From a virus (lineage: Duplodnaviria; Heunggongvirae; Uroviricota; Caudoviricetes): a stretch of DNA of 7,647 nt. This document shows, one piece after another, positions 48 through 7,503 of this stretch. The stretch's first letter is position 1; each line of letters starts with the position of its first letter. The notes beneath the pieces are model-generated. The model did not search any database and was not told the DNA's origin. It saw only the letters and a list, made by a program, of their open reading frames with translations. The stretch lies in the IMG/VR virus record IMGVR_UViG_2690316243_000010; one strand, given 5' to 3'. Made by a program: the position numbers and the translations under genes.

Positions 48-587
48 TTATTCAGATTTTGGATTATGCTTTCTCTTCACGAAGTTCCGATTGGCGAGAA
101 CACTCATCAGANNNNNNNNNNNNNNNNNNNNNNNNNNNNNNNNNNNNNNNNNNNNNNNNNNNNNNNNNNNNNNNNNNNNNNNNNNNNNNNNNNNNNNNNN
201 NNNNNNNNNNNNNNNNNNNNNNNNNNNNNNNNNNNNNNNNNNNNNNNNNNNNNNNNNNNNNNNNNNNNNNNNNNNNNNNNNNNNNNNNNNNNNNNNNNNN
301 NNNNNNNNNGGATCAACCACAGATGGTTTCTTCAGCTTTGCCCTCGAGAGTTTTTTGCGGGCGTTTTGCCAGTCCTTACGAGCCTGTTCAGACGGGAATA
401 ACCCGTAGCCAGAGTTGTATACATCCCCACTGGCAACCAGCTCTCTGGCGAGAACGCTTATTAAATATCTTGTCGCCCCGGTTTTAGCTTCCAGTTGTCG
501 TAACGTCTCGCGCCCACTCTGGCGTACGAGTTCAACAACCTGCCCCTTAATTTTTTCCCGCTCTTCCTGTGTAAATACTTTTGCCAT
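48..587 (-). CDS. Hypothetical prophage protein, about 179 aa, with 66 codons masked by the N run; likely start ATG at 587..585
   Basis: Open frame continuous across the N gap (gap length 198 is a multiple of 3). ATG at 587..585 lies 15 nt downstream of the stop of the upstream gene on the same strand, preceded by a G-rich stretch. The visible N-terminal 97 aa and C-terminal 20 aa are not recognisable to me. The TTG at 602 used in the ORF track is less likely. Confidence 0.45.
   Translation of the reverse strand: MAKVFTQEEREKIKGQVVELVRQSGRETLRQLEAKTGATRYLISVLARELVASGDVYNSGYGLFPSEQARKDWQNARKKLSRAKLKKPSVVDXXXXXXXXXXXXXXXXXXXXXXXXXXXXXXXXXXXXXXXXXXXXXXXXXXXXXXXXXXXXXXXXXXXLMSVLANRNFVKRKHNPKSE
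112..309. other. Run of 198 undetermined bases (assembly gap or masked sequence)
   Basis: Directly seen: n characters from 112 to 309. Length is divisible by 3, so the flanking minus-strand reading frame is preserved. Confidence 1.
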
Positions 588-3238: not shown

Positions 3239-3664
3239 TCAATGTACTGCCACAGCATTTCCTGCCGGGCCACCACGGTTCATCTGATTGAAACCGGCGA
3301 TTGCCACTGCGACAAAATCATCAGCGTCTCTCACCAGTCGTTCATGCGTCTCCACCAGTTCCCGAAAATAAGCTGAACTGTGGCTGCGCATTCGAGCCAC
3401 CAGCGGAGGTGGCATTGCCCTTTCGATCGCAGGTAACAACGCCTGAATTTTTTCAACAGCGTCAGGGGTGTCTTTATCCAGCCAACGGAAAATCTTTTGG
3501 GTGTTGAGATAAAGTGTGTTGTGCTTGCTGTCGTTATGCAGAACCGGAAACGTCATTCCCAGTTCGAAATAAACCCTGGTTATTTCAGCTGCCGGAACTT
3601 TTTCACCGTCCGGATGCGCCCAGGCTTTCATCGCCATGCGGATGTGTTCATGCTTGATTTTCAT
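3239..3664 (-). CDS. ydaT: YdaT-family protein (reported functional equivalent of CII in a CP-933P-type cryptic prophage), 141 aa
   Basis: N-terminus MKIKHEHI matches my recollection of YdaT proteins. Start ATG at 3664..3662 overlaps the stop of the upstream Cro-like gene (ATGA overlap), so it is translationally coupled. Position between the cro-like gene and the replication genes mirrors lambda cII. Confidence 0.8.
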   Translation of the reverse strand: MKIKHEHIRMAMKAWAHPDGEKVPAAEITRVYFELGMTFPVLHNDSKHNTLYLNTQKIFRWLDKDTPDAVEKIQALLPAIERAMPPPLVARMRSHSSAYFRELVETHERLVRDADDFVAVAIAGFNQMNRGGPAGNAVAVH

Positions 3665-3924
3665 GAATCAACCCCCGCCGATGGTTGTGTGTTAGCCTGA
3701 AACTCAGCAGGCAAGCCGTCAGTTGGGTTGGGGTAGGTTTTACTGTCAATCTCATGTGGGGTCACCACCCATCCCGTTGCTTCACACCAACGTAATATTT
3801 TTTCTCCTGTAAGTTTTGCACGCCCCGTTATAACGTGGCTGACCATCCCTTGGGATGCGCCAACAATCTCAGCAAATGAACTCTGGGTTATATGAAAATG
3901 ATGCAAATATTCTCCAAGATTCAT
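3661..3924 (-). CDS. ydaS: Cro-like HTH DNA-binding protein (YdaS family), about 87 aa
   Basis: Small minus-strand ORF diverging from the repressor gene. ATG at 3924..3922 is preferred over the TTG at 3951 used in the ORF track, with AGGGCGG upstream. Helix-turn-helix-like segment SSFAEIVGASQGMVSHVITGRAKL. First gene of an operon followed by ydaT and the replication genes. Confidence 0.8.
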   Translation of the reverse strand: MNLGEYLHHFHITQSSFAEIVGASQGMVSHVITGRAKLTGEKILRWCEATGWVVTPHEIDSKTYPNPTDGLPAEFQANTQPSAGVDS

Positions 3925-3960
3925 AATCCGCCCTATGTGATGTGTTACCAATGCATAATT

Positions 3961-4000
3961 AATAGCACTGTTATTTTTAAAAGTAAATAGTGATGCTATT
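3961..4000. promoter_or_regulatory. OR-like operator pair in the divergent promoter region: two 15-bp sites of the AATAGC-N3-GCTATT family
   Basis: AATAGCACTGTTATT at 3961-3975 and AATAGTGATGCTATT at 3986-4000, centres 25 bp apart, in the 111-bp gap between divergent ydaS-like and repressor starts. Same motif family as the 5098-5138 pair. Confidence 0.7.
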
Positions 4001-4035
4001 TCAAAGTGATTAGCAATCTTATTAGAATTGGATGT

Positions 4036-4536
4036 ATGAAAAGAAAATCATTGTCAGACACCGACCTCAACGCCGCCAGAAGACTGAAAGAAATCTGGAT
4101 GGCAAAGAAATCTCAGTTGGGATTGACTCAGGAACGTGCGGCGGAAATTATGGGGTTTTCAACACAAGGGGCGGTAAGTCACTACCTAAATGGTCAAACC
4201 CCACTAAACCTTGAGGCTGTTCTAAAGTTTGCTGGCTTACTGAAAGTTCCCCCTGAGTCAATCAGGCCAGACATGGTAGATTTGCTGCAAATTGCAAGGA
4301 TGTATTGTCGAGAACCACAGCAAGATAACATAGTCGCATTACCAGCAGACACAGAACAAACAGAGGATGAACTACCGTTTGCCGTAGAGCCGATGGAACG
4401 AGATTTAATCCATACGTTCAGAGCTTTTCCGAAAGAAGATCAAGAACACATGCTTCAGGAGATGAAAGATAAAAAAGAATCAATGGATCGTACGGTTGCG
4501 CGGTGGTTAGCTGCACAAAAAGGCCGTCGCGCCTAA
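4036..4536 (+). CDS. paaR2: CI-like prophage repressor lacking an S24 peptidase domain (PaaR2/RacR-type HTH regulator), about 166 aa
   Basis: ATG at 4036 (MKRKSL...) rather than the ORF-track start at 4006. The N-terminal HTH (LGLTQERAAEIMGFSTQGAVSHYLNGQTPLNLEAVLKFAGLLKVPPESI) is lambda CI/XRE-like. The roughly 100-aa C-terminal region is acidic with no Ala-Gly cleavage site or GDSM-type serine motif that I can see. Diverges from the cro-like gene and is followed by the TA pair. Symbol assigned by resemblance from memory. Confidence 0.75.
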   Translation: MKRKSLSDTDLNAARRLKEIWMAKKSQLGLTQERAAEIMGFSTQGAVSHYLNGQTPLNLEAVLKFAGLLKVPPESIRPDMVDLLQIARMYCREPQQDNIVALPADTEQTEDELPFAVEPMERDLIHTFRAFPKEDQEHMLQEMKDKKESMDRTVARWLAAQKGRRA

Positions 4537-4555
4537 ATCAGAGGAGATATGTAAA

Positions 4556-4750
4556 ATGAGTACAGTCCTTTCCCCAATGGTTTCAGAATTTGAGACAGTT
4601 GAGCAAGAAAATAGTTACAACGAATGGCTGCGGGCCAAAGTAGCAGCAAGCCTCGCGGATCCCCGCCCGGCGATTCCGCATGATGAGGTAATGGCGGAAA
4701 TGGAACAAATTATTGCCCAAATTGCTGCTGCAACTCACAGAGGTGAATAA
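4556..4750 (+). CDS. paaA2: Antitoxin of the ParE-family toxin (PaaA2-like), 64 aa
   Basis: Small acidic protein. GAGGAG Shine-Dalgarno at 4541-4546. Stop TAA overlaps the toxin start (TAATG at 4748-4752). Sits immediately upstream of a RelE/ParE-fold toxin gene. Confidence 0.8.
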   Translation: MSTVLSPMVSEFETVEQENSYNEWLRAKVAASLADPRPAIPHDEVMAEMEQIIAQIAAATHRGE

Positions 4751-5040
4751 TGTTACCCGTTTTATGGCTACCATCTGCTCGTGATGATTTGCGCCAGATC
4801 GTAGCCTACATAGCTAAAGAAAATCCCGCGGCAGCACGCAGAATGAAAATTCGAATTGAAACATCCGTTTTGCCGCTCACAGAGCATCCTTACCTGTATC
4901 CTCCAAGCGAGCGAGTTCTTGGTCTTCGTGAAATTGTAACTCATCCTAACTACATCATCCTTTACCGAGTAACAGCATCAAGCATAGAAGTAGTAAATAT
5001 TGTGCATTCTCGAAGACAGTATCCAGGCAAAAACAGTTAA
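4750..5040 (+). CDS. parE2: ParE/RelE-superfamily toxin (ParE2-like), 96 aa
   Basis: Size, 1-nt overlap with the upstream antitoxin, and sequence character (basic C-terminal region ...IVHSRRQYPGK) are typical of ParE/RelE toxins. Followed by an intrinsic terminator. Confidence 0.85.
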   Translation: MLPVLWLPSARDDLRQIVAYIAKENPAAARRMKIRIETSVLPLTEHPYLYPPSERVLGLREIVTHPNYIILYRVTASSIEVVNIVHSRRQYPGKNS

Positions 5041-5056
5041 TTATTCCCGCCGACAG

Positions 5057-5078
5057 AACCACCTTAGGGTGGTTTTTT
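5057..5078 (+). terminator. Rho-independent terminator of the repressor-TA operon
   Basis: Stem AACCACC (5057-5063), loop TTAG, stem GGTGGTT (5068-5074), followed by a T run to 5078. Begins 17 nt after the parE2-like stop. Confidence 0.8.
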
Positions 5079-5097
5079 CTTGCCCCAACAAAAAACA

Positions 5098-5138
5098 ATA
5101 GCGATGCTATTTACATCAAAAAAAATAATGATGCTATT
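5098..5138. promoter_or_regulatory. OL-like operator pair: AATAGCGATGCTATT (perfect palindromic arms) and AATAATGATGCTATT
   Basis: Sites at 5098-5112 and 5124-5138, centres 26 bp apart, immediately downstream of the terminator and upstream of the rightward small-gene operon. Same motif as the 3961-4000 pair about 1.1 kb away. Confidence 0.7.
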
Positions 5139-5319
5139 GTTTCAGGCGTCAACCCACCCCGCCCCACAGAATGCAGGGCAATACTTCGAGTTACCAGACA
5201 GTGGTCAGGGGTTAAGTAGCCAGCCCGAGGCGTAAGAACATGACGGCAGGGTTCAATCTTTAACTATGCAGCAGGTTTTTTGTTCCGCCACCCCGGCGTT
5301 AAGGGGAAATGAGGTCAGC

Positions 5320-5472
5320 ATGGATACTATCGATCTTGGCAACAACGAATCTCTGGTGTGCGGCGTGTTCCCTAACCAGGATGGAACGTTTACCGCCATG
5401 ACGTATACCAAAAGCAAAACGTTTAAAACCGAATCTGGCGCGCGTTGCTGGTTAGCCAGAAACACTGACTGA
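5320..5472 (+). CDS. Small prophage protein, YdaF-like (DUF1391-type), 50 aa
   Basis: ATG at 5320 with GAGGT Shine-Dalgarno 4 nt upstream; the longer ORF-track start at 5266 lacks a Shine-Dalgarno. Stop overlaps the next start (TGATG). Position and size match the small genes left of the repressor in Rac-type prophages. Family assignment from memory, moderate. Confidence 0.6.
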   Translation: MDTIDLGNNESLVCGVFPNQDGTFTAMTYTKSKTFKTESGARCWLARNTD

Positions 5473-5849
5473 TGAGGCTGACGATGGAATTTAAAGATTT
5501 ACCGTCTGATGTACAGAAAACAGCAGCTCATACATTGCATTCTGTGCTGCGAGAAATCGGGAAAGATATTGCAAGCGAGCCAGCAAAAGATCTGGCCCGG
5601 AAAATCAAGACCGCTTTCGTTGAGCTTTATAATGTTGGCACTGACTCTGAAACTGTCGAGACCAAGACCGTAAGTTCACCAATATTCTCACTTGAGCCAA
5701 GCGTATTATCAGGTGAAATATGCACCGAGATTTCCAGCGAACTGCTTCCGGTAATACGAGAAGCAATTCGCCGTCGCGGTTTGGATGGAAGTTATGATCA
5801 TGACGTTCTGCAAGTTCTCAGGACAATGGTGACTTCACTGGGGATTTGA
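5472..5849 (+). CDS. Hypothetical early-left protein, 121-125 aa (start at 5472 by coupling, or at 5484 with a GAGG Shine-Dalgarno)
   Basis: ORF coupled to the upstream small gene. Acidic and not Arg-rich, so not an obvious N-type antiterminator. No family recognised. Confidence 0.55.
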   Translation: MRLTMEFKDLPSDVQKTAAHTLHSVLREIGKDIASEPAKDLARKIKTAFVELYNVGTDSETVETKTVSSPIFSLEPSVLSGEICTEISSELLPVIREAIRRRGLDGSYDHDVLQVLRTMVTSLGI

Positions 5850-6018
5850 TCCCTGCGTCCTCTAAGCTTTTGATATAGCGGTCCTCCAAGAAGCGGTAAA
5901 TTTTGTCGAAATCATCTTTTCCCTCTGGTTTATTCAGAGGATTACAGGACCCGTAAGTAGCGGCATACATTTCAACCGTTTTATCAAAAATATAAGAGAC
6001 AAATTCTTCTTTAGTCAT
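5818..6018 (-). CDS. Small hypothetical protein, 66 aa, convergent with and overlapping the 3' end of the upstream + strand gene
   Basis: ATG at 6018..6016 with AAGGA Shine-Dalgarno about 8 nt upstream. Coding region visibly more AT-rich than its neighbours. Hydrophilic, no transmembrane segment. A possible -35/-10 pair (TTTAAC, 17 nt, TATCCT on the minus strand) lies about 25 nt upstream. The 5' extension in the ORF track is probably not translated. Confidence 0.5.
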   Translation of the reverse strand: MTKEEFVSYIFDKTVEMYAATYGSCNPLNKPEGKDDFDKIYRFLEDRYIKSLEDAGIKSPVKSPLS

Positions 6019-6218
6019 ATAGATTTCCTTCTTGGTTATTCGGGATAAGAAGGATACCACCTCGCCTGACGTGGTTAAAAGCAGGCACACAACGCGAAAT
6101 GACGCGGCGGTAAGTATGGCGGAGTTATTCCTTCCCCGTTGAGGACACCGGGTTGTCAGGTTGACCATACGCTTAAGTGACAACCACGCCACAACACTCC
6201 ATGTTGATTGGTACCTTT

Positions 6219-6427: not shown

Positions 6428-6746
6428 CGGTGATGAAAGGAAAGAGAAAATGTTGAATGTAGCTATTGAAAACCAGAACGGGTGGAATTATAGTGCACCT
6501 GCACCTTATAAAACGGGTGCCGGGCGTGGAAACCCGAACGTTACTCGAGCGCATAGCCGCGCTGAAGCGGTTTTTTTATGCGTAATGCACAGCTCCATTC
6601 AAATTATGGTGGGATGTGCAGGGCAGTCGCAAGACTGGCCGGGTTCTCGAGTGACCGGTATTTCCACCCCTGTACGTCTCACCACCCTTATGGTCGTGGA
6701 AAACCTCGGTGGTGAGTTAATTAACTTATCACTCGAGGATGCCATC

Positions 6747-7304
6747 ATGGCTACTATCCCTGCCCTTTCTCACCCTGACGTAACCATCGAAAATGGTCGC
6801 GCTGTCACTACGTCTATTGCGATCGCAGAGTTCTTTGGCAAGCGTCACGACAATGTGTTACGTGCCATCGCAAATACTGAATGCTCACCTGAATTTAACG
6901 CCCTCAATTTTGAGGACGTCACCTACACTGACGCCAAAGGCGAAAAACGCCCGATGTACCAAATCACCAAAAACGGCTTCGTTTTCCTGGTGATGGGATT
7001 CACTGGCAAAAAAGCCGCTGCATTTAAAGAAGCCTACATTGCTGAGTTCGATCGCATGGAGGCCGAACTGCGCCAGAATAACACCCCACCCACTGACAAA
7101 ATAATTCCAGGCGATGGCCGCACCCTGGTTGTTCACTTCGACGAACGCGGCAACATCAGATTCACCGAAACCGTTCCTGATGGCGCACGGGTCTGTACCA
7201 TGGAGACTTTCCGGTTTTATCTGGAAGAACAGGGATGGACTCTTGTTAACCGGGGCGCAATTAAAAATATGACTGTAGAGCAATTACTCAAAATTCATTG
7301 TTGA
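6747..7304 (+). CDS. Rha-family phage regulatory protein (Phage_pRha domain), about 185 aa
   Basis: ATG at 6747 with GAGGA Shine-Dalgarno 7 nt upstream. Sequence block AIAEFFGKRHDNVLRAIAN...MYQITKNGFVFLVMGFTGKKAAAFKEAYIAEFDRME is characteristic of Rha/ORF6N-type phage regulators as I recall them. The in-frame upstream extension to 6450 has a possible Shine-Dalgarno but non-protein-like composition, so the start is uncertain. Confidence 0.8.
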   Translation: MATIPALSHPDVTIENGRAVTTSIAIAEFFGKRHDNVLRAIANTECSPEFNALNFEDVTYTDAKGEKRPMYQITKNGFVFLVMGFTGKKAAAFKEAYIAEFDRMEAELRQNNTPPTDKIIPGDGRTLVVHFDERGNIRFTETVPDGARVCTMETFRFYLEEQGWTLVNRGAIKNMTVEQLLKIHC

Positions 7305-7314
7305 GGACGCGATA

Positions 7315-7503
7315 ATGGAAACGTTATTACCAAACGTTAATACGACTGAAGGTTGTTTTGAAATTGGTGTCACTATCAGTAACACGGTATTTACTGAAGA
7401 TGCCATTAACAAGAGAAAACACGAACGGGAGTCATTAAATAAAATATGCATTGTTTCAATGCTGGCTCGTTTGCGTCTGATGCAAAAAGGATGCTGGCGA
7501 TGA
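7315..7503 (+). CDS. Small hypothetical protein, 62 aa
   Basis: ATG at 7315 with GAGG 8 nt upstream, right after the Rha stop. Its stop overlaps the next start (ATGA at 7500-7503). The coupling supports it being real; no family recognised. Confidence 0.45.
   Translation: METLLPNVNTTEGCFEIGVTISNTVFTEDAINKRKHERESLNKICIVSMLARLRLMQKGCWR

What the first reader, a model, noticed from the sequence alone, without database searches (positions are those of the whole stretch)
4556..5040. ParE-family toxin with a small acidic antitoxin, tightly coupled (TAATG overlap)
A 64-aa acidic protein followed by a 96-aa basic ParE/RelE-like protein with overlapping stop and start is the classic type II TA arrangement. 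ParE toxins usually poison DNA gyrase. In a prophage immunity operon this can act as an addiction or abortive-infection-like module. Probably known (PaaA2-ParE2-like), but worth confirming as the defence or addiction cargo of this element.
Basis: partly seen in the sequence, partly recalled or inferred. Interest (0 to 1): 0.45.

Follow-up and report, generated by a model that had tools for sequence, protein, structure and literature searches.

The report
Known PaaA–ParE prophage toxin–antitoxin pair
The two small overlapping genes are a real toxin–antitoxin pair of the already characterised PaaA–ParE family, sitting behind the repressor gene of a lambda-like prophage (exact copies are common in Shigella sonnei), so the finding is correct but ordinary.

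Summary
ORFs 4556-4750 (64 aa, pI 4.6) and 4750-5040 (96 aa, pI 9.9) share a TAATG stop/start overlap, and each has its own Shine-Dalgarno sequence.

Both match their families far above threshold: Pfam PaaA2 at 82 bits and ParE_toxin at 64 bits. They align to the solved E. coli O157:H7 PaaA2-ParE2 complex (5cw7, 3zbe). The nearest relatives are the paralogous CP-933M pair, PaaA1 (77%) and ParE1 (82%), rather than PaaA2 (66%) and ParE2 (65%).

The exact proteins are RefSeq WP_005142544.1 and WP_014334020.1, seen on at least 1000 contigs, mostly Shigella sonnei. dN/dS is 0.05-0.14.

The pair is the distal part of a three-gene operon. It follows a CI-type repressor (4036-4536) whose N-terminal domain resembles that of lambda CI and whose C-terminal domain is PaaR-type. 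Divergent cro-like ydaS and cII-like ydaT lie upstream, and repressor-operator-like palindromes lie on both sides.

Most likely function, inferred from homologues: a prophage addiction module. A labile PaaA sequesters ParE, which damages DNA and induces SOS.

One caveat: the classical gyrase target is not established for this subfamily, because ParE2 did not bind GyrA. An anti-phage role is untested, and PADLOC gives no hit.

Novelty is low: a new member of a known kind.

The parts
3239..3664 (-). ydaT, a cII-like regulator (141 aa) and second gene of the divergent lytic-side operon
   Evidence: Pfam YdaT_toxin. PDB 3c4r E=4e-79 and 8bt1 (CP-933P YdaT) E=3e-70. PHROG 163, CII-like activator.
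3654..3671 (.). YdaT operator (OM-type inverted repeat TTGATTTTCATGAATCAA) at the ydaS/ydaT junction
   Evidence: Exact match to the published 5'-TTGATTN6AATCAA-3' site (PMC9986795), and the only zero-mismatch hit in the window. It occupies the same position as in CP-933P, at the end of ydaS.
3661..3924 (-). ydaS, a cro-like HTH regulator (87 aa from the ATG at 3924)
   Evidence: Pfam HTH_3 and PHROG 35 repressor. 100% identical to RefSeq WP_001048456.1 in L001. Only 26-28% identical to the YdaS proteins of CP-933M and CP-933P.
3961..4023 (.). Three operator-like 15-bp palindromes, AATAG-N5-CTATT, at 3961-3975, 3986-4000 and 4009-4023 in the ydaS-paaR intergenic region (an OR-like arrangement)
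   Evidence: There are 7 matches with up to 2 mismatches against 2.4 expected, and 5 of the 7 cluster at the two ends of the paaR-paaA-parE operon. Their function as operators is inferred.
4000..4028 (+). PRM-like promoter, TTCAAA-17-TAGAAT. The paaR-like ATG at 4036 starts 8 nt after the -10 element, which would give a leaderless mRNA.
   Evidence: Consensus scan; promoter-like hits overall are not above chance. The geometry matches the leaderless paaR2 and lambda cI described in PMC8630535. Inferred.
4036..4536 (+). CI-type immunity repressor (166 aa), the PaaR-like third component of the operon. It combines a lambda-CI-like N-terminal HTH domain with a PaaR/DicA-type C-terminal domain and has no S24 peptidase domain.
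   Evidence: Pfam HTH_3 only. PDB lambda CI N-terminal domain, 1lmb E=3e-9, residues 2-81. NCBIfam DicA C-terminal part, E=9e-8. The C-terminal ~48 aa are conserved with PaaR1 and PaaR2. DNA homology to CP-933M resumes at 4409.
4556..4750 (+). paaA, a PaaA-family antitoxin (64 aa, acidic) with no DNA-binding domain
   Evidence: Pfam PF21217 PaaA2, 81.9 bits. NCBIfam NF050103 equivalog, 94.3 bits. PDB 3zbe/5cw7 PaaA2 E=1.4e-23. Identical to WP_005142544.1. dN/dS 0.05-0.14.
4750..5040 (+). parE, a ParE-family toxin (96 aa, basic), translationally coupled to paaA through the TAATG overlap
   Evidence: Pfam PF05016, 64.1 bits. PDB 5cw7_B ParE2 E=6.7e-37. 82% identical to CP-933M ParE1. Identical to WP_014334020.1. 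dN/dS about 0.06.
5055..5078 (+). Intrinsic terminator-like hairpin (AGAACCACC-UUAG-GGUGGUUUU) followed by a U run, 15 nt after the parE stop codon
   Evidence: RNA fold -15.1 kcal/mol, z = -3.3. The simple pattern scan missed it.
5097..5138 (.). Two further copies of the AATAG-N5-CTATT palindrome, at 5097-5111 and 5124-5138, downstream of the operon (an OL-like arrangement)
   Evidence: The placement is analogous to the PL/OL region that PaaR2 and YdaS regulate in CP-933P (PMC8630535). Inferred.

Best explanation
This is a PaaA-ParE type II toxin-antitoxin cassette. It forms the promoter-distal part of the immunity (repressor) operon of a lambdoid prophage, in the slot where lambda carries rexA-rexB.

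Shown here:
- The two genes are intact, translationally coupled and under purifying selection.
- They are 65-82% identical to the experimentally characterised PaaA1/ParE1 and PaaA2/ParE2 of E. coli O157:H7.
- They lie downstream of a CI-type repressor gene, with divergent cro-like ydaS and cII-like ydaT.
- An exact YdaT operator is present, and repressor-operator-like palindromes lie at both ends of the operon.

Inferred from the homologues:
- The repressor, not the antitoxin, supplies DNA binding. The operon is transcribed from a PRM-like promoter, probably as a leaderless mRNA, and from a YdaT-dependent promoter.
- PaaA, an intrinsically disordered truncated ParD, folds around ParE and neutralises it.
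- PaaA is degraded by ClpXP/ClpAP. If the region is lost, the longer-lived ParE is freed, associates with the nucleoid, causes DNA damage with SOS induction and kills the cell.
- The net effect is addiction, that is, stabilisation of the prophage immunity region.

The molecular target is probably a type II topoisomerase-DNA complex, but it is not established for this subfamily.
For: Family and structure matches:
- Pfam PaaA2 81.9 bits and ParE_toxin 64.1 bits.
- NCBIfam NF050103 equivalog 94.3 bits.
- Solved complex 5cw7/5cze/3zbe: ParE2 E=7e-37, PaaA2 E=1e-23.

Identities: ParE 82% to ParE1 and 65% to ParE2. PaaA 77% to PaaA1 and 66% to PaaA2.

Selection and conservation:
- dN/dS 0.05-0.14 for both genes.
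- Exact proteins on at least 1000 contigs each, mostly Shigella sonnei.
- RefSeq annotates the same gene order in E. coli RMDEC465.
- PaaA lies immediately upstream of ParE in 7 of 7 distant loci.

Context:
- YdaT 3c4r E=4e-79.
- Exact YdaT operator at 3654-3671.
- Repressor N-terminal domain similar to lambda CI and C-terminal domain shared with PaaR1 and PaaR2.
- Five clustered palindromes flanking the operon.
- Terminator hairpin after parE.

Functional data on the homologues, from PMC8630535 and PMC4803016 (the latter citing Hallez 2010):
- ParE toxicity is neutralised only by the cognate PaaA.
- Post-segregational killing depends on ClpXP/ClpAP.
- ParE2 induces SOS and co-localises with the nucleoid.
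- The region stabilises a mini-F plasmid.
- paaR2 is leaderless.
Against: - No experiment exists on this allele; toxicity, neutralisation and addiction are all transferred from 65-82% identical homologues.
- The regulator is only 24-33% identical overall to PaaR2 and PaaR1, so its operator specificity and regulatory details must differ.
- Jurenas et al. detected no ParE2 activity in steady state in either transcriptional state (PMC8630535), so the natural trigger is unknown.
- The promoter assignment rests on a consensus scan that is not above chance (3 hits found, 2.7 expected).
- The target is unknown: ParE2 did not bind GyrA or GyrA59 (PMC8251345, PMC10886550, bioRxiv 10.1101/2025.07.24.666505).
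Confidence: 0.85

Rival explanations
1. The cassette is primarily an anti-phage exclusion or abortive-infection module. On this view it is a functional replacement for lambda RexAB, and ParE is released when a superinfecting phage shuts down host transcription or degrades PaaA. This is not exclusive of the addiction role.
For: - The cassette occupies the rexA-rexB slot of the immunity operon, downstream of the repressor and before the OL-like sites (PMC9986795 makes the same point for CP-933P).
- It would be expressed in the lysogen.
- Both families are present in phage and prophage genomes (PHROG 3936 and 2455).
- A sequenced phage, Evi, carries the paaR2-paaA2-parE2 version.
Against: - PADLOC-DB gives no hit for PaaR, PaaA or ParE.
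- None of the papers I read reports phage protection by a PaaA-ParE pair.
- The published phenotype is addiction and stabilisation (PMC8630535).
Confidence: 0.2
2. ParE here is a classical gyrase poison, as in RK2 ParE and Vibrio cholerae ParE2. It would trap the gyrase cleavage complex through contact with GyrA.
For: - It belongs to the ParE family.
- The homologue ParE2 induces SOS and co-localises with the nucleoid (PMC8630535).
- V. cholerae ParE2 binds gyrase only in a DNA-dependent way through its alpha-hairpin (bioRxiv 10.1101/2025.07.24.666505). A negative result with isolated GyrA is therefore not conclusive.
Against: [quoted passage not shown]
- The key Trp25 of VcParE2 is not conserved in EcParE2, which is only 15% identical to VcParE2 (same preprint).
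- The window ParE has no Trp in the alpha1-alpha2 loop region; its only Trp is W6.
Confidence: 0.3
3. The downstream protein is a RelE-type ribosome-dependent mRNA interferase rather than a ParE-type toxin.
For: NCBIfam TIGR02385 RelE_StbE gives 29.3 bits, just above its cut-off of 27.9. ParE and RelE share one fold.
Against: - All PDB matches at E<=0.01 are ParE proteins (5cw7, 5czf, 6x0a, 5ceg), with no RelE, YoeB or HigB among them.
- 65-82% identity to ParE2 and ParE1, which induce SOS (PMC8630535).
- The partner is a PaaA (truncated ParD) antitoxin (PMC8251345).
Confidence: 0.03
4. The pair is an inactive relic: a non-toxic ParE, or a decayed module carried passively in a cryptic prophage.
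For: - Cryptic prophages accumulate defects; the CP-933P copy in L004 and L005 has many frameshifted neighbouring genes.
- One distant locus, L013, has a frameshifted parE.
- Attenuated ParE toxins are known (PMC10886550).
Against: - Both ORFs are intact and have Shine-Dalgarno sequences.
- dN/dS is 0.05-0.14 while dS exceeds 1.
- Identical protein sequences occur on at least 1000 contigs.
- The residues invariant across the family are all present.
Confidence: 0.07

Closest known systems
paaR1-paaA1-parE1 of cryptic prophage CP-933M, E. coli O157:H7 EDL933 (Hallez et al. 2010, as cited in PMC8630535 and PMC4803016)
   Same: - Closest characterised relative: ParE 82% and PaaA 77% identical.
- Same TAATG overlap.
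- Same gene order: ydaT, ydaS, then repressor, paaA, parE, ydfA.
- DNA homology is continuous from inside the 3' part of the repressor gene through ydfA (4409-5463).
- Same charge class: acidic PaaA tail paired with a basic ParE hairpin.
   Different: - The repressor's N-terminal DNA-binding domain, the operators and the cro-like gene are unrelated. The imm block 3736-4408 has no DNA homology, the repressors are 33% identical and the YdaS proteins 28%.
- The repressor here is 166 aa, with a lambda-CI-like N-terminal domain, against 133 aa in CP-933M.
paaR2-paaA2-parE2 of CP-933P / Sp12 (structures 3zbe, 5cw7, 5cze, 5czf; PMC8630535; PMC9986795)
   Same: - Same three-gene architecture in a lambdoid immunity region, with divergent ydaS-ydaT.
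- Identical YdaT operator motif.
- PaaA lacks a DNA-binding domain.
- The repressor's C-terminal ~48 aa are conserved.
- The inferred repressor start suggests a leaderless mRNA, as shown for paaR2.
   Different: - Only 65% (ParE) and 66% (PaaA) identical.
- The PaaA C-terminal tail and the ParE N-terminal alpha-hairpin carry opposite charges to those of the window pair. This fits the reported lack of cross-neutralisation between systems 1 and 2.
- paaA2 and parE2 do not overlap (TAAAATG).
- PaaR2 is 123 aa and 24% identical, and its reported operator consensus (GTTTAGTAA half-sites) differs from the AATAG-N5-CTATT motif here.
Canonical ParD-ParE modules (RK2, Caulobacter crescentus, Vibrio cholerae)
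   Same: The ParE fold, with its N-terminal alpha-hairpin. The antitoxin's toxin-binding segment wraps the toxin in the same way (PMC8251345).
   Different: [quoted passage not shown] PaaA lacks this domain, and regulation is delegated to a separate phage repressor.
- Gyrase poisoning is shown for RK2 and Vibrio ParE but not for the PaaA-associated ParE2 (PMC10886550).
Lambda cI-rexA-rexB immunity operon
   Same: Positional and regulatory analogy. In both, accessory genes are co-transcribed with a CI-type repressor, apparently leaderless here, between OR-like and OL-like operator clusters. The repressor's N-terminal domain is homologous to that of lambda CI.
   Different: - The cargo is a TA pair, not RexAB.
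- The repressor has no S24 autocleavage domain.
- The cII analogue is YdaT, a POU-type protein.

Membership tests
PaaA-ParE (PaaR-PaaA-ParE) three-component TA systems | The toxin is a ParE-family protein closely related to ParE1 and ParE2 | tested here: met
   Pfam PF05016 64.1 bits against a cut-off of 23. 5cw7_B E=6.7e-37 over residues 1-93. 82% identical to ParE1 and 65% to ParE2.
PaaA-ParE (PaaR-PaaA-ParE) three-component TA systems | The antitoxin is of the PaaA family: a short, acidic, truncated ParD with no DNA-binding domain, encoded immediately upstream of parE | tested here: met
   PF21217 81.9 bits against a cut-off of 27, covering residues 16-48, with no other domain. NF050103 94.3 bits. 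3zbe E=1.4e-23. 64 aa, pI 4.55. TAATG overlap.
PaaA-ParE (PaaR-PaaA-ParE) three-component TA systems | A third gene, paaR, encodes an HTH regulator directly upstream in the same orientation (same operon) | tested here: inconclusive
   An HTH repressor gene ends 19 nt before paaA, and no terminator was detected between them. It shares the conserved C-terminal ~48 aa with PaaR1 and PaaR2. Its N-terminal DNA-binding domain, however, is lambda-CI-like and unrelated to theirs (24-33% overall identity). Co-transcription was not tested.
PaaA-ParE (PaaR-PaaA-ParE) three-component TA systems | Location in a lambdoid prophage immunity region, with divergent ydaS (cro-like) and ydaT (cII-like) genes and a YdaT operator | tested here: met
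   The flanking genes are O-like and DnaC-like replication genes on one side and ydfA, Rha and dicB on the other.
PaaA-ParE (PaaR-PaaA-ParE) three-component TA systems | ParE is toxic, the cognate PaaA neutralises it, PaaA is degraded by ClpXP/ClpAP, and the locus mediates post-segregational killing | not testable with these tools
   Known only for the O157 homologues (PMC8630535, PMC4803016). Intact ORFs and dN/dS of 0.05-0.14 support retained function.
Gyrase-poisoning ParE toxins (RK2 ParE, V. cholerae ParE2) | Binds gyrase and stabilises the cleavage complex, with the key aromatic residue (VcParE2 Trp25) in the alpha1-alpha2 loop | tested here: inconclusive
   The biochemistry cannot be tested here. 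The only Trp in the window ParE is W6, and the alpha1-alpha2 loop region reads KENPAA. The closest characterised homologue did not bind GyrA (PMC8251345, PMC10886550). The residue equivalent to Trp25 is hard to assign in this subfamily (bioRxiv 10.1101/2025.07.24.666505).
RelE-type mRNA interferases | Closest sequence and structure relatives are RelE, YoeB or HigB, paired with a RelB-type antitoxin | tested here: not met
   PDB hits are ParE proteins only. The antitoxin matches PaaA2, not a RelB structure. The NCBIfam label 'RelB family antitoxin' for NF050103 is only a name; its best structural relatives are PaaA2 entries.
Catalogued anti-phage defence systems (PADLOC-DB v2) | The proteins match a model of a known or candidate defence system | tested here: not met
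   No PADLOC hit for the repressor, PaaA or ParE at E<=0.01.

The most novel reading that the evidence does not exclude
PaaA-ParE pairs fall into two electrostatically inverted specificity classes.

- In 5 of the 10 pairs examined, an acidic PaaA C-terminal tail (net -2) accompanies a basic ParE alpha-hairpin (+3 to +4). This group includes the window pair and CP-933M.
- In the other 5, the signs are reversed: tail +3 to +6, hairpin -3 to -6. This group includes CP-933P and the Paracoccus, Acetobacter, Komagataeibacter and Pseudomonas loci.

If the tail and hairpin are in contact, a simple charge swap would be the insulation switch. It would let several prophages in one cell each keep an orthogonal addiction module, while the imm region around them (3736-4408 here) is freely exchanged.

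The window pair would then be cross-neutralised by PaaA1-class antitoxins but not by PaaA2-class ones. This may already be implicit in the 5cw7 structure paper, which I could not read.
Probability: 0.45. Interest if true: 0.3.

Novelty: new member of a known kind. Interest (0 to 1): 0.15.

Why it matters
It matters little beyond correct annotation.

- The cassette is an uncharacterised orthologue, widespread in Shigella sonnei, of a TA system already studied genetically, structurally and at the single-cell level in E. coli O157:H7.
- It shows that the same paaA-parE cargo, together with the 3' end of the repressor gene, is shared between heteroimmune lambdoid prophages. That fits the published idea that the TA protects the immunity region against loss by recombination.
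- It is a second, charge-inverted allele class that could be used to map PaaA/ParE specificity.
- The real open question for the subfamily is the cellular target of the PaaA-associated ParE toxins. Sequence analysis here does not advance it.

Tried and rejected
- Consensus promoter and terminator scan of 3500-5400. Promoter-like hits were at chance level (3 found, 2.7 expected). The scan also missed the obvious hairpin after parE, which folding then confirmed. I could not identify a convincing + strand PL-like promoter next to the OL-like palindromes. The only consensus hit there (5152-5125) is on the minus strand and is not trusted.
- PADLOC scan for a defence-system assignment: no hit.
- Phage collection. 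DNA search found only flanking homology, 30% coverage. tblastn found a single phage, Evi, with a ParE2-class copy.
- The genome-contig scan returned only 8 loci because it relies on exact peptide patterns, so it says nothing about true taxonomic breadth. In those loci no PaaR-like gene was found by tblastn. The two loci I inspected show an ordinary chromosomal setting and a plasmid-like setting.
- First attempt to fetch CP-933P failed on the length limit. The next stretch (L004) held the late genes only. The locus was found in L005.
- The RelE-interferase reading was rejected.
- A TA-specific role for the repressor's C-terminal domain was rejected. The same domain type matches DicA, which is not linked to a TA, and no three-protein complex was reported (PMC4803016).
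- Structure prediction was not run. Both proteins are 65-80% identical to chains of a solved complex, so a model would add nothing, and the tool cannot model the heterocomplex.
- L013 parE is frameshifted and was left out of the covariation table.
Full report

Yes. The ORF table lists 4556-4750 (+, 64 aa) and 4750-5040 (+, 96 aa). The sequence reads GGTGAATAATGTTA, with the stop TAA at 4748-4750 and the start ATG at 4750-4752.

GAGGAG at 4541-4546 precedes the first ATG by 9 nt. GAGG at 4740-4743, inside the end of the first gene, precedes the second ATG by 6 nt. Both genes therefore have ribosome-binding sites and the second can be translationally coupled to the first. The calculated pI values are 4.55 and 9.89.

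ORFs of this size are common in the window: there are 60 of at least 40 aa. The ORFs alone prove nothing, so the case rests on homology, selection and conserved adjacency.

**2. What the two proteins are**

- The 64-aa protein matches Pfam PF21217 (PaaA2) at 81.9 bits, against a cut-off of 27. It matches the NCBIfam equivalog NF050103 at 94.3 bits.
- The 96-aa protein matches Pfam PF05016 (ParE_toxin) at 64.1 bits over the whole model.
- Against the PDB, the toxin aligns end to end with ParE2 of E. coli O157:H7 (5cw7_B, E=6.7e-37). The antitoxin aligns with PaaA2 (3zbe, 5cw7, 5cze, E=1.4e-23).
- No RelE, YoeB or HigB structure appears at E<=0.01, so the RelE-interferase reading is rejected. 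The TIGR02385 hit, at 29.3 bits against a cut-off of 27.9, is marginal.

I fetched both O157 loci from strain ATCC 43894: CP-933M (L003) and CP-933P (L005). The PaaR2 sequence in L005 begins MQKKE, as published in PMC8630535.

| Protein | vs CP-933M (system 1) | vs CP-933P (system 2) |
|---|---|---|
| ParE | 82.3% (ParE1) | 64.6% (ParE2) |
| PaaA | 76.6% (PaaA1) | 65.6% (PaaA2) |

**3. How common and how conserved it is**

- Both proteins are identical to RefSeq WP_005142544.1 ('RelB family antitoxin') and WP_014334020.1 ('RelE/ParE family toxin'), as annotated in E. coli RMDEC465.
- Each exact sequence occurs on at least 1000 contigs in the protein collection, overwhelmingly Shigella sonnei. 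The window is very probably from an S. sonnei prophage.
- Among 5426 complete E. coli genomes, 842 carry a recognisable homologue of the pair, but only 2 carry this allele at 99% identity or more.
- dN/dS against three homologous loci is 0.05-0.14 for paaA and about 0.06 for parE, with dS above 1. This is strong purifying selection and argues against a dead relic.
- A pattern-limited scan of species-representative genomes found 8 loci: Acetobacter, Komagataeibacter, Paracoccus, Pseudomonas, Sphingomonas and three MAGs. In all 7 with upstream DNA, a PaaA homologue sits directly upstream of ParE. No PaaR-like gene was detected in those loci.
- The Pseudomonas copy lies between ordinary chromosomal genes, and the Paracoccus copy is on a small plasmid-like contig.
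- The two-gene pair is therefore the conserved mobile unit. The three-gene form appears to be what results when the pair sits inside a lambdoid immunity operon. PMC8630535 proposed the same.

**4. Surroundings: a lambdoid immunity region**

Upstream, in the same orientation and ending 19 nt before paaA, is an HTH protein. It is 166 aa from the ATG at 4036, the start RefSeq uses for the 99.4%-identical WP_001343764.1.

- Its C-terminal part matches the C-terminal part of DicA (NCBIfam, E=9e-8).
- Its last ~48 residues are strongly conserved with PaaR1 and PaaR2, although overall identity is only 33% and 24%.
- It has no S24 peptidase domain, so like PaaR2 it is not expected to be cleaved after SOS induction.

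Divergently transcribed are a cro-like HTH gene, ydaS (3661-3924), and ydaT (3239-3664). YdaT matches 3c4r at E=4e-79 and 8bt1 at E=3e-70. It is the CII analogue (PMC8630535, PMC9986795).

The published YdaT operator 5'-TTGATTN6AATCAA-3' occurs once without mismatch, at 3654-3671. That is exactly the ydaS/ydaT junction, as in CP-933P (PMC9986795).

A 15-bp palindrome, AATAG-N5-CTATT, occurs three times in the 111-bp ydaS-paaR spacer (3961-3975, 3986-4000, 4009-4023). It occurs twice just after the operon (5097-5111, 5124-5138). Seven matches with up to 2 mismatches are found against 2.4 expected, and five of them cluster at these two places. I read these as OR-like and OL-like repressor/Cro operators. 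That is an inference.

A PRM-like TTCAAA-17-TAGAAT ends at 4028, 8 nt before the ATG at 4036. This would give a leaderless mRNA, as demonstrated for paaR2 and lambda cI (PMC8630535). The promoter scan as a whole is not above chance, so this too is an inference.

A hairpin followed by a U run at 5055-5078 (-15.1 kcal/mol, z=-3.3) ends the operon.

The flanking genes fit a lambdoid early region. On one side are O-like and DnaC-like replication genes. On the other are ydfA, a Rha-family gene and dicB.

**5. Mosaic structure**

Against CP-933M, DNA homology covers 3241-3735 (ydaT and the 3' end of ydaS). It then resumes at 4409, inside the repressor gene at about codon 124, and runs through paaA, parE and ydfA to 5463. 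The block 3736-4408 has no homology. It contains the cro-like N-terminus, the operators and the repressor's DNA-binding domain.

This is a classical heteroimmune imm substitution. It leaves the TA, and the repressor's C-terminal domain, in place.

**6. How it most likely works**

Everything here is transferred from the O157 homologues and is marked as inference for this allele.

- PaaA is a truncated ParD. It is largely disordered when free and wraps around ParE on binding (PMC8251345).
- PaaA2 is degraded by ClpXP/ClpAP. The locus mediates post-segregational killing and stabilises a mini-F plasmid as well as ccdAB does (PMC8630535).
- ParE2 co-localises with the nucleoid and induces SOS (PMC8630535).
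- PaaA1 does not neutralise ParE2, nor PaaA2 ParE1 (PMC4803016, PMC7354431).
- DNA binding is supplied by the repressor, with partial help from the PaaA-ParE complex (PMC4803016).

The best-supported function is therefore an addiction module that stabilises the prophage immunity region.

For this subfamily the target is not known. [quoted passage not shown] The DNA-dependence of the VcParE2-gyrase interaction means that negative result is not final.

An abortive-infection or exclusion role is suggested only by position, since the pair occupies the rexAB slot. PADLOC has no matching model, and I found no report of phage protection by this family.

**7. A small extra observation**

The differences between class 1 and class 2 pairs concentrate in two places: the PaaA C-terminal tail (after the motif PHDEV) and ParE residues 7-38, the N-terminal alpha-hairpin. 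The rest of both proteins is nearly invariant.

| Group | Pairs | PaaA tail charge | ParE hairpin charge |
|---|---|---|---|
| Window, CP-933M, E. coli 90-3040, two MAGs | 5 | -2 | +3 to +4 |
| CP-933P, Paracoccus, Acetobacter, Komagataeibacter, Pseudomonas | 5 | +3 to +6 | -3 to -6 |

In all 10 pairs examined, the net charges of the two segments have opposite signs. This coordinated charge inversion is a plausible basis for the reported orthogonality of systems 1 and 2.

Three limits apply. It rests on about three independent lineages. I could not check contacts in 5cw7. And it may already be known to the authors of the structure.

**8. Verdict**

This is an uncharacterised orthologue, common in S. 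sonnei, of a well-studied TA family in its known genomic setting. It is a new member of a known kind, and interest is low.

Noticed in passing
window 6501-6689 (within ORF 6450-7304): Rfam finds an isrK Hfq-binding sRNA (6501-6577, 61 bits) and a C4 antisense RNA (6602-6689, 77 bits), both above gathering score. They lie inside the 5' third of the 284-aa 'Rha family' ORF. The same stretch (aa 14-109) is what matches Pfam Phage_ASH, while the Rha domain only starts at aa 120 and an internal Met (MATIPAL...) lies near 6747. The N-terminal 'Ash' part of the annotated protein may really be a P1/P7-type C4/isrK RNA leader controlling a Rha/antirepressor gene.
   Followed up: partly
window 4036-4536: The immunity repressor is a hybrid. 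It has a lambda-CI-like N-terminal domain (1lmb, E=3e-9) fused to the ~48-aa C-terminal domain shared by PaaR1, PaaR2 and DicA, and no S24 autocleavage domain. The DNA-level recombination breakpoint with CP-933M lies inside the gene, at about 4409.
   Followed up: yes
window 112-309: A run of 198 N (masked or unsequenced) interrupts the leftmost ORFs, including the 184-aa minus-strand ORF at 48-602.
   Followed up: no
window 3239-3664 (YdaT residues ~40-53): YdaT is 77-87% identical to its homologues, but the segment VLHNDSKHNTLYL replaces ELYDDSHPEALAR. This falls in the long alpha2-alpha3 loop of the HTH, which PMC9986795 describes as highly variable. The exact OM operator is nevertheless retained.
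   Followed up: partly
L014 2501-2776 (Escherichia phage Evi, LR597642.1 24917-25192): The sequenced phage Evi carries a paaR2-paaA2-parE2-type cassette. The parE gene (67% identical to the window ParE) is not annotated at all, and paaA is labelled hypothetical.
   Followed up: partly
window 7315-7503: A 62-aa ORF corresponds to the cell-division inhibitor DicB, by position relative to the RefSeq annotation of L001 (dicB directly after the Rha gene). No DicF RNA was detected by Rfam at gathering threshold.
   Followed up: partly
window 5472-5849 (+) and 5818-6192 (-): Two ORFs have no Pfam or NCBIfam match but strong PHROG matches of unknown function (phrog_33007, E=5e-80; phrog_34441, E=1e-48). 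They replace the ydfB/ydfC genes found at this position in the closest E. coli relative, L001.
   Followed up: no
L013 3001-3244 (Sphingomonas populi): The parE homologue is split by a frameshift, matching in two frames (residues 10-56 and 55-92), while the upstream paaA is intact. This may be a decayed toxin with a retained antitoxin.
   Followed up: no
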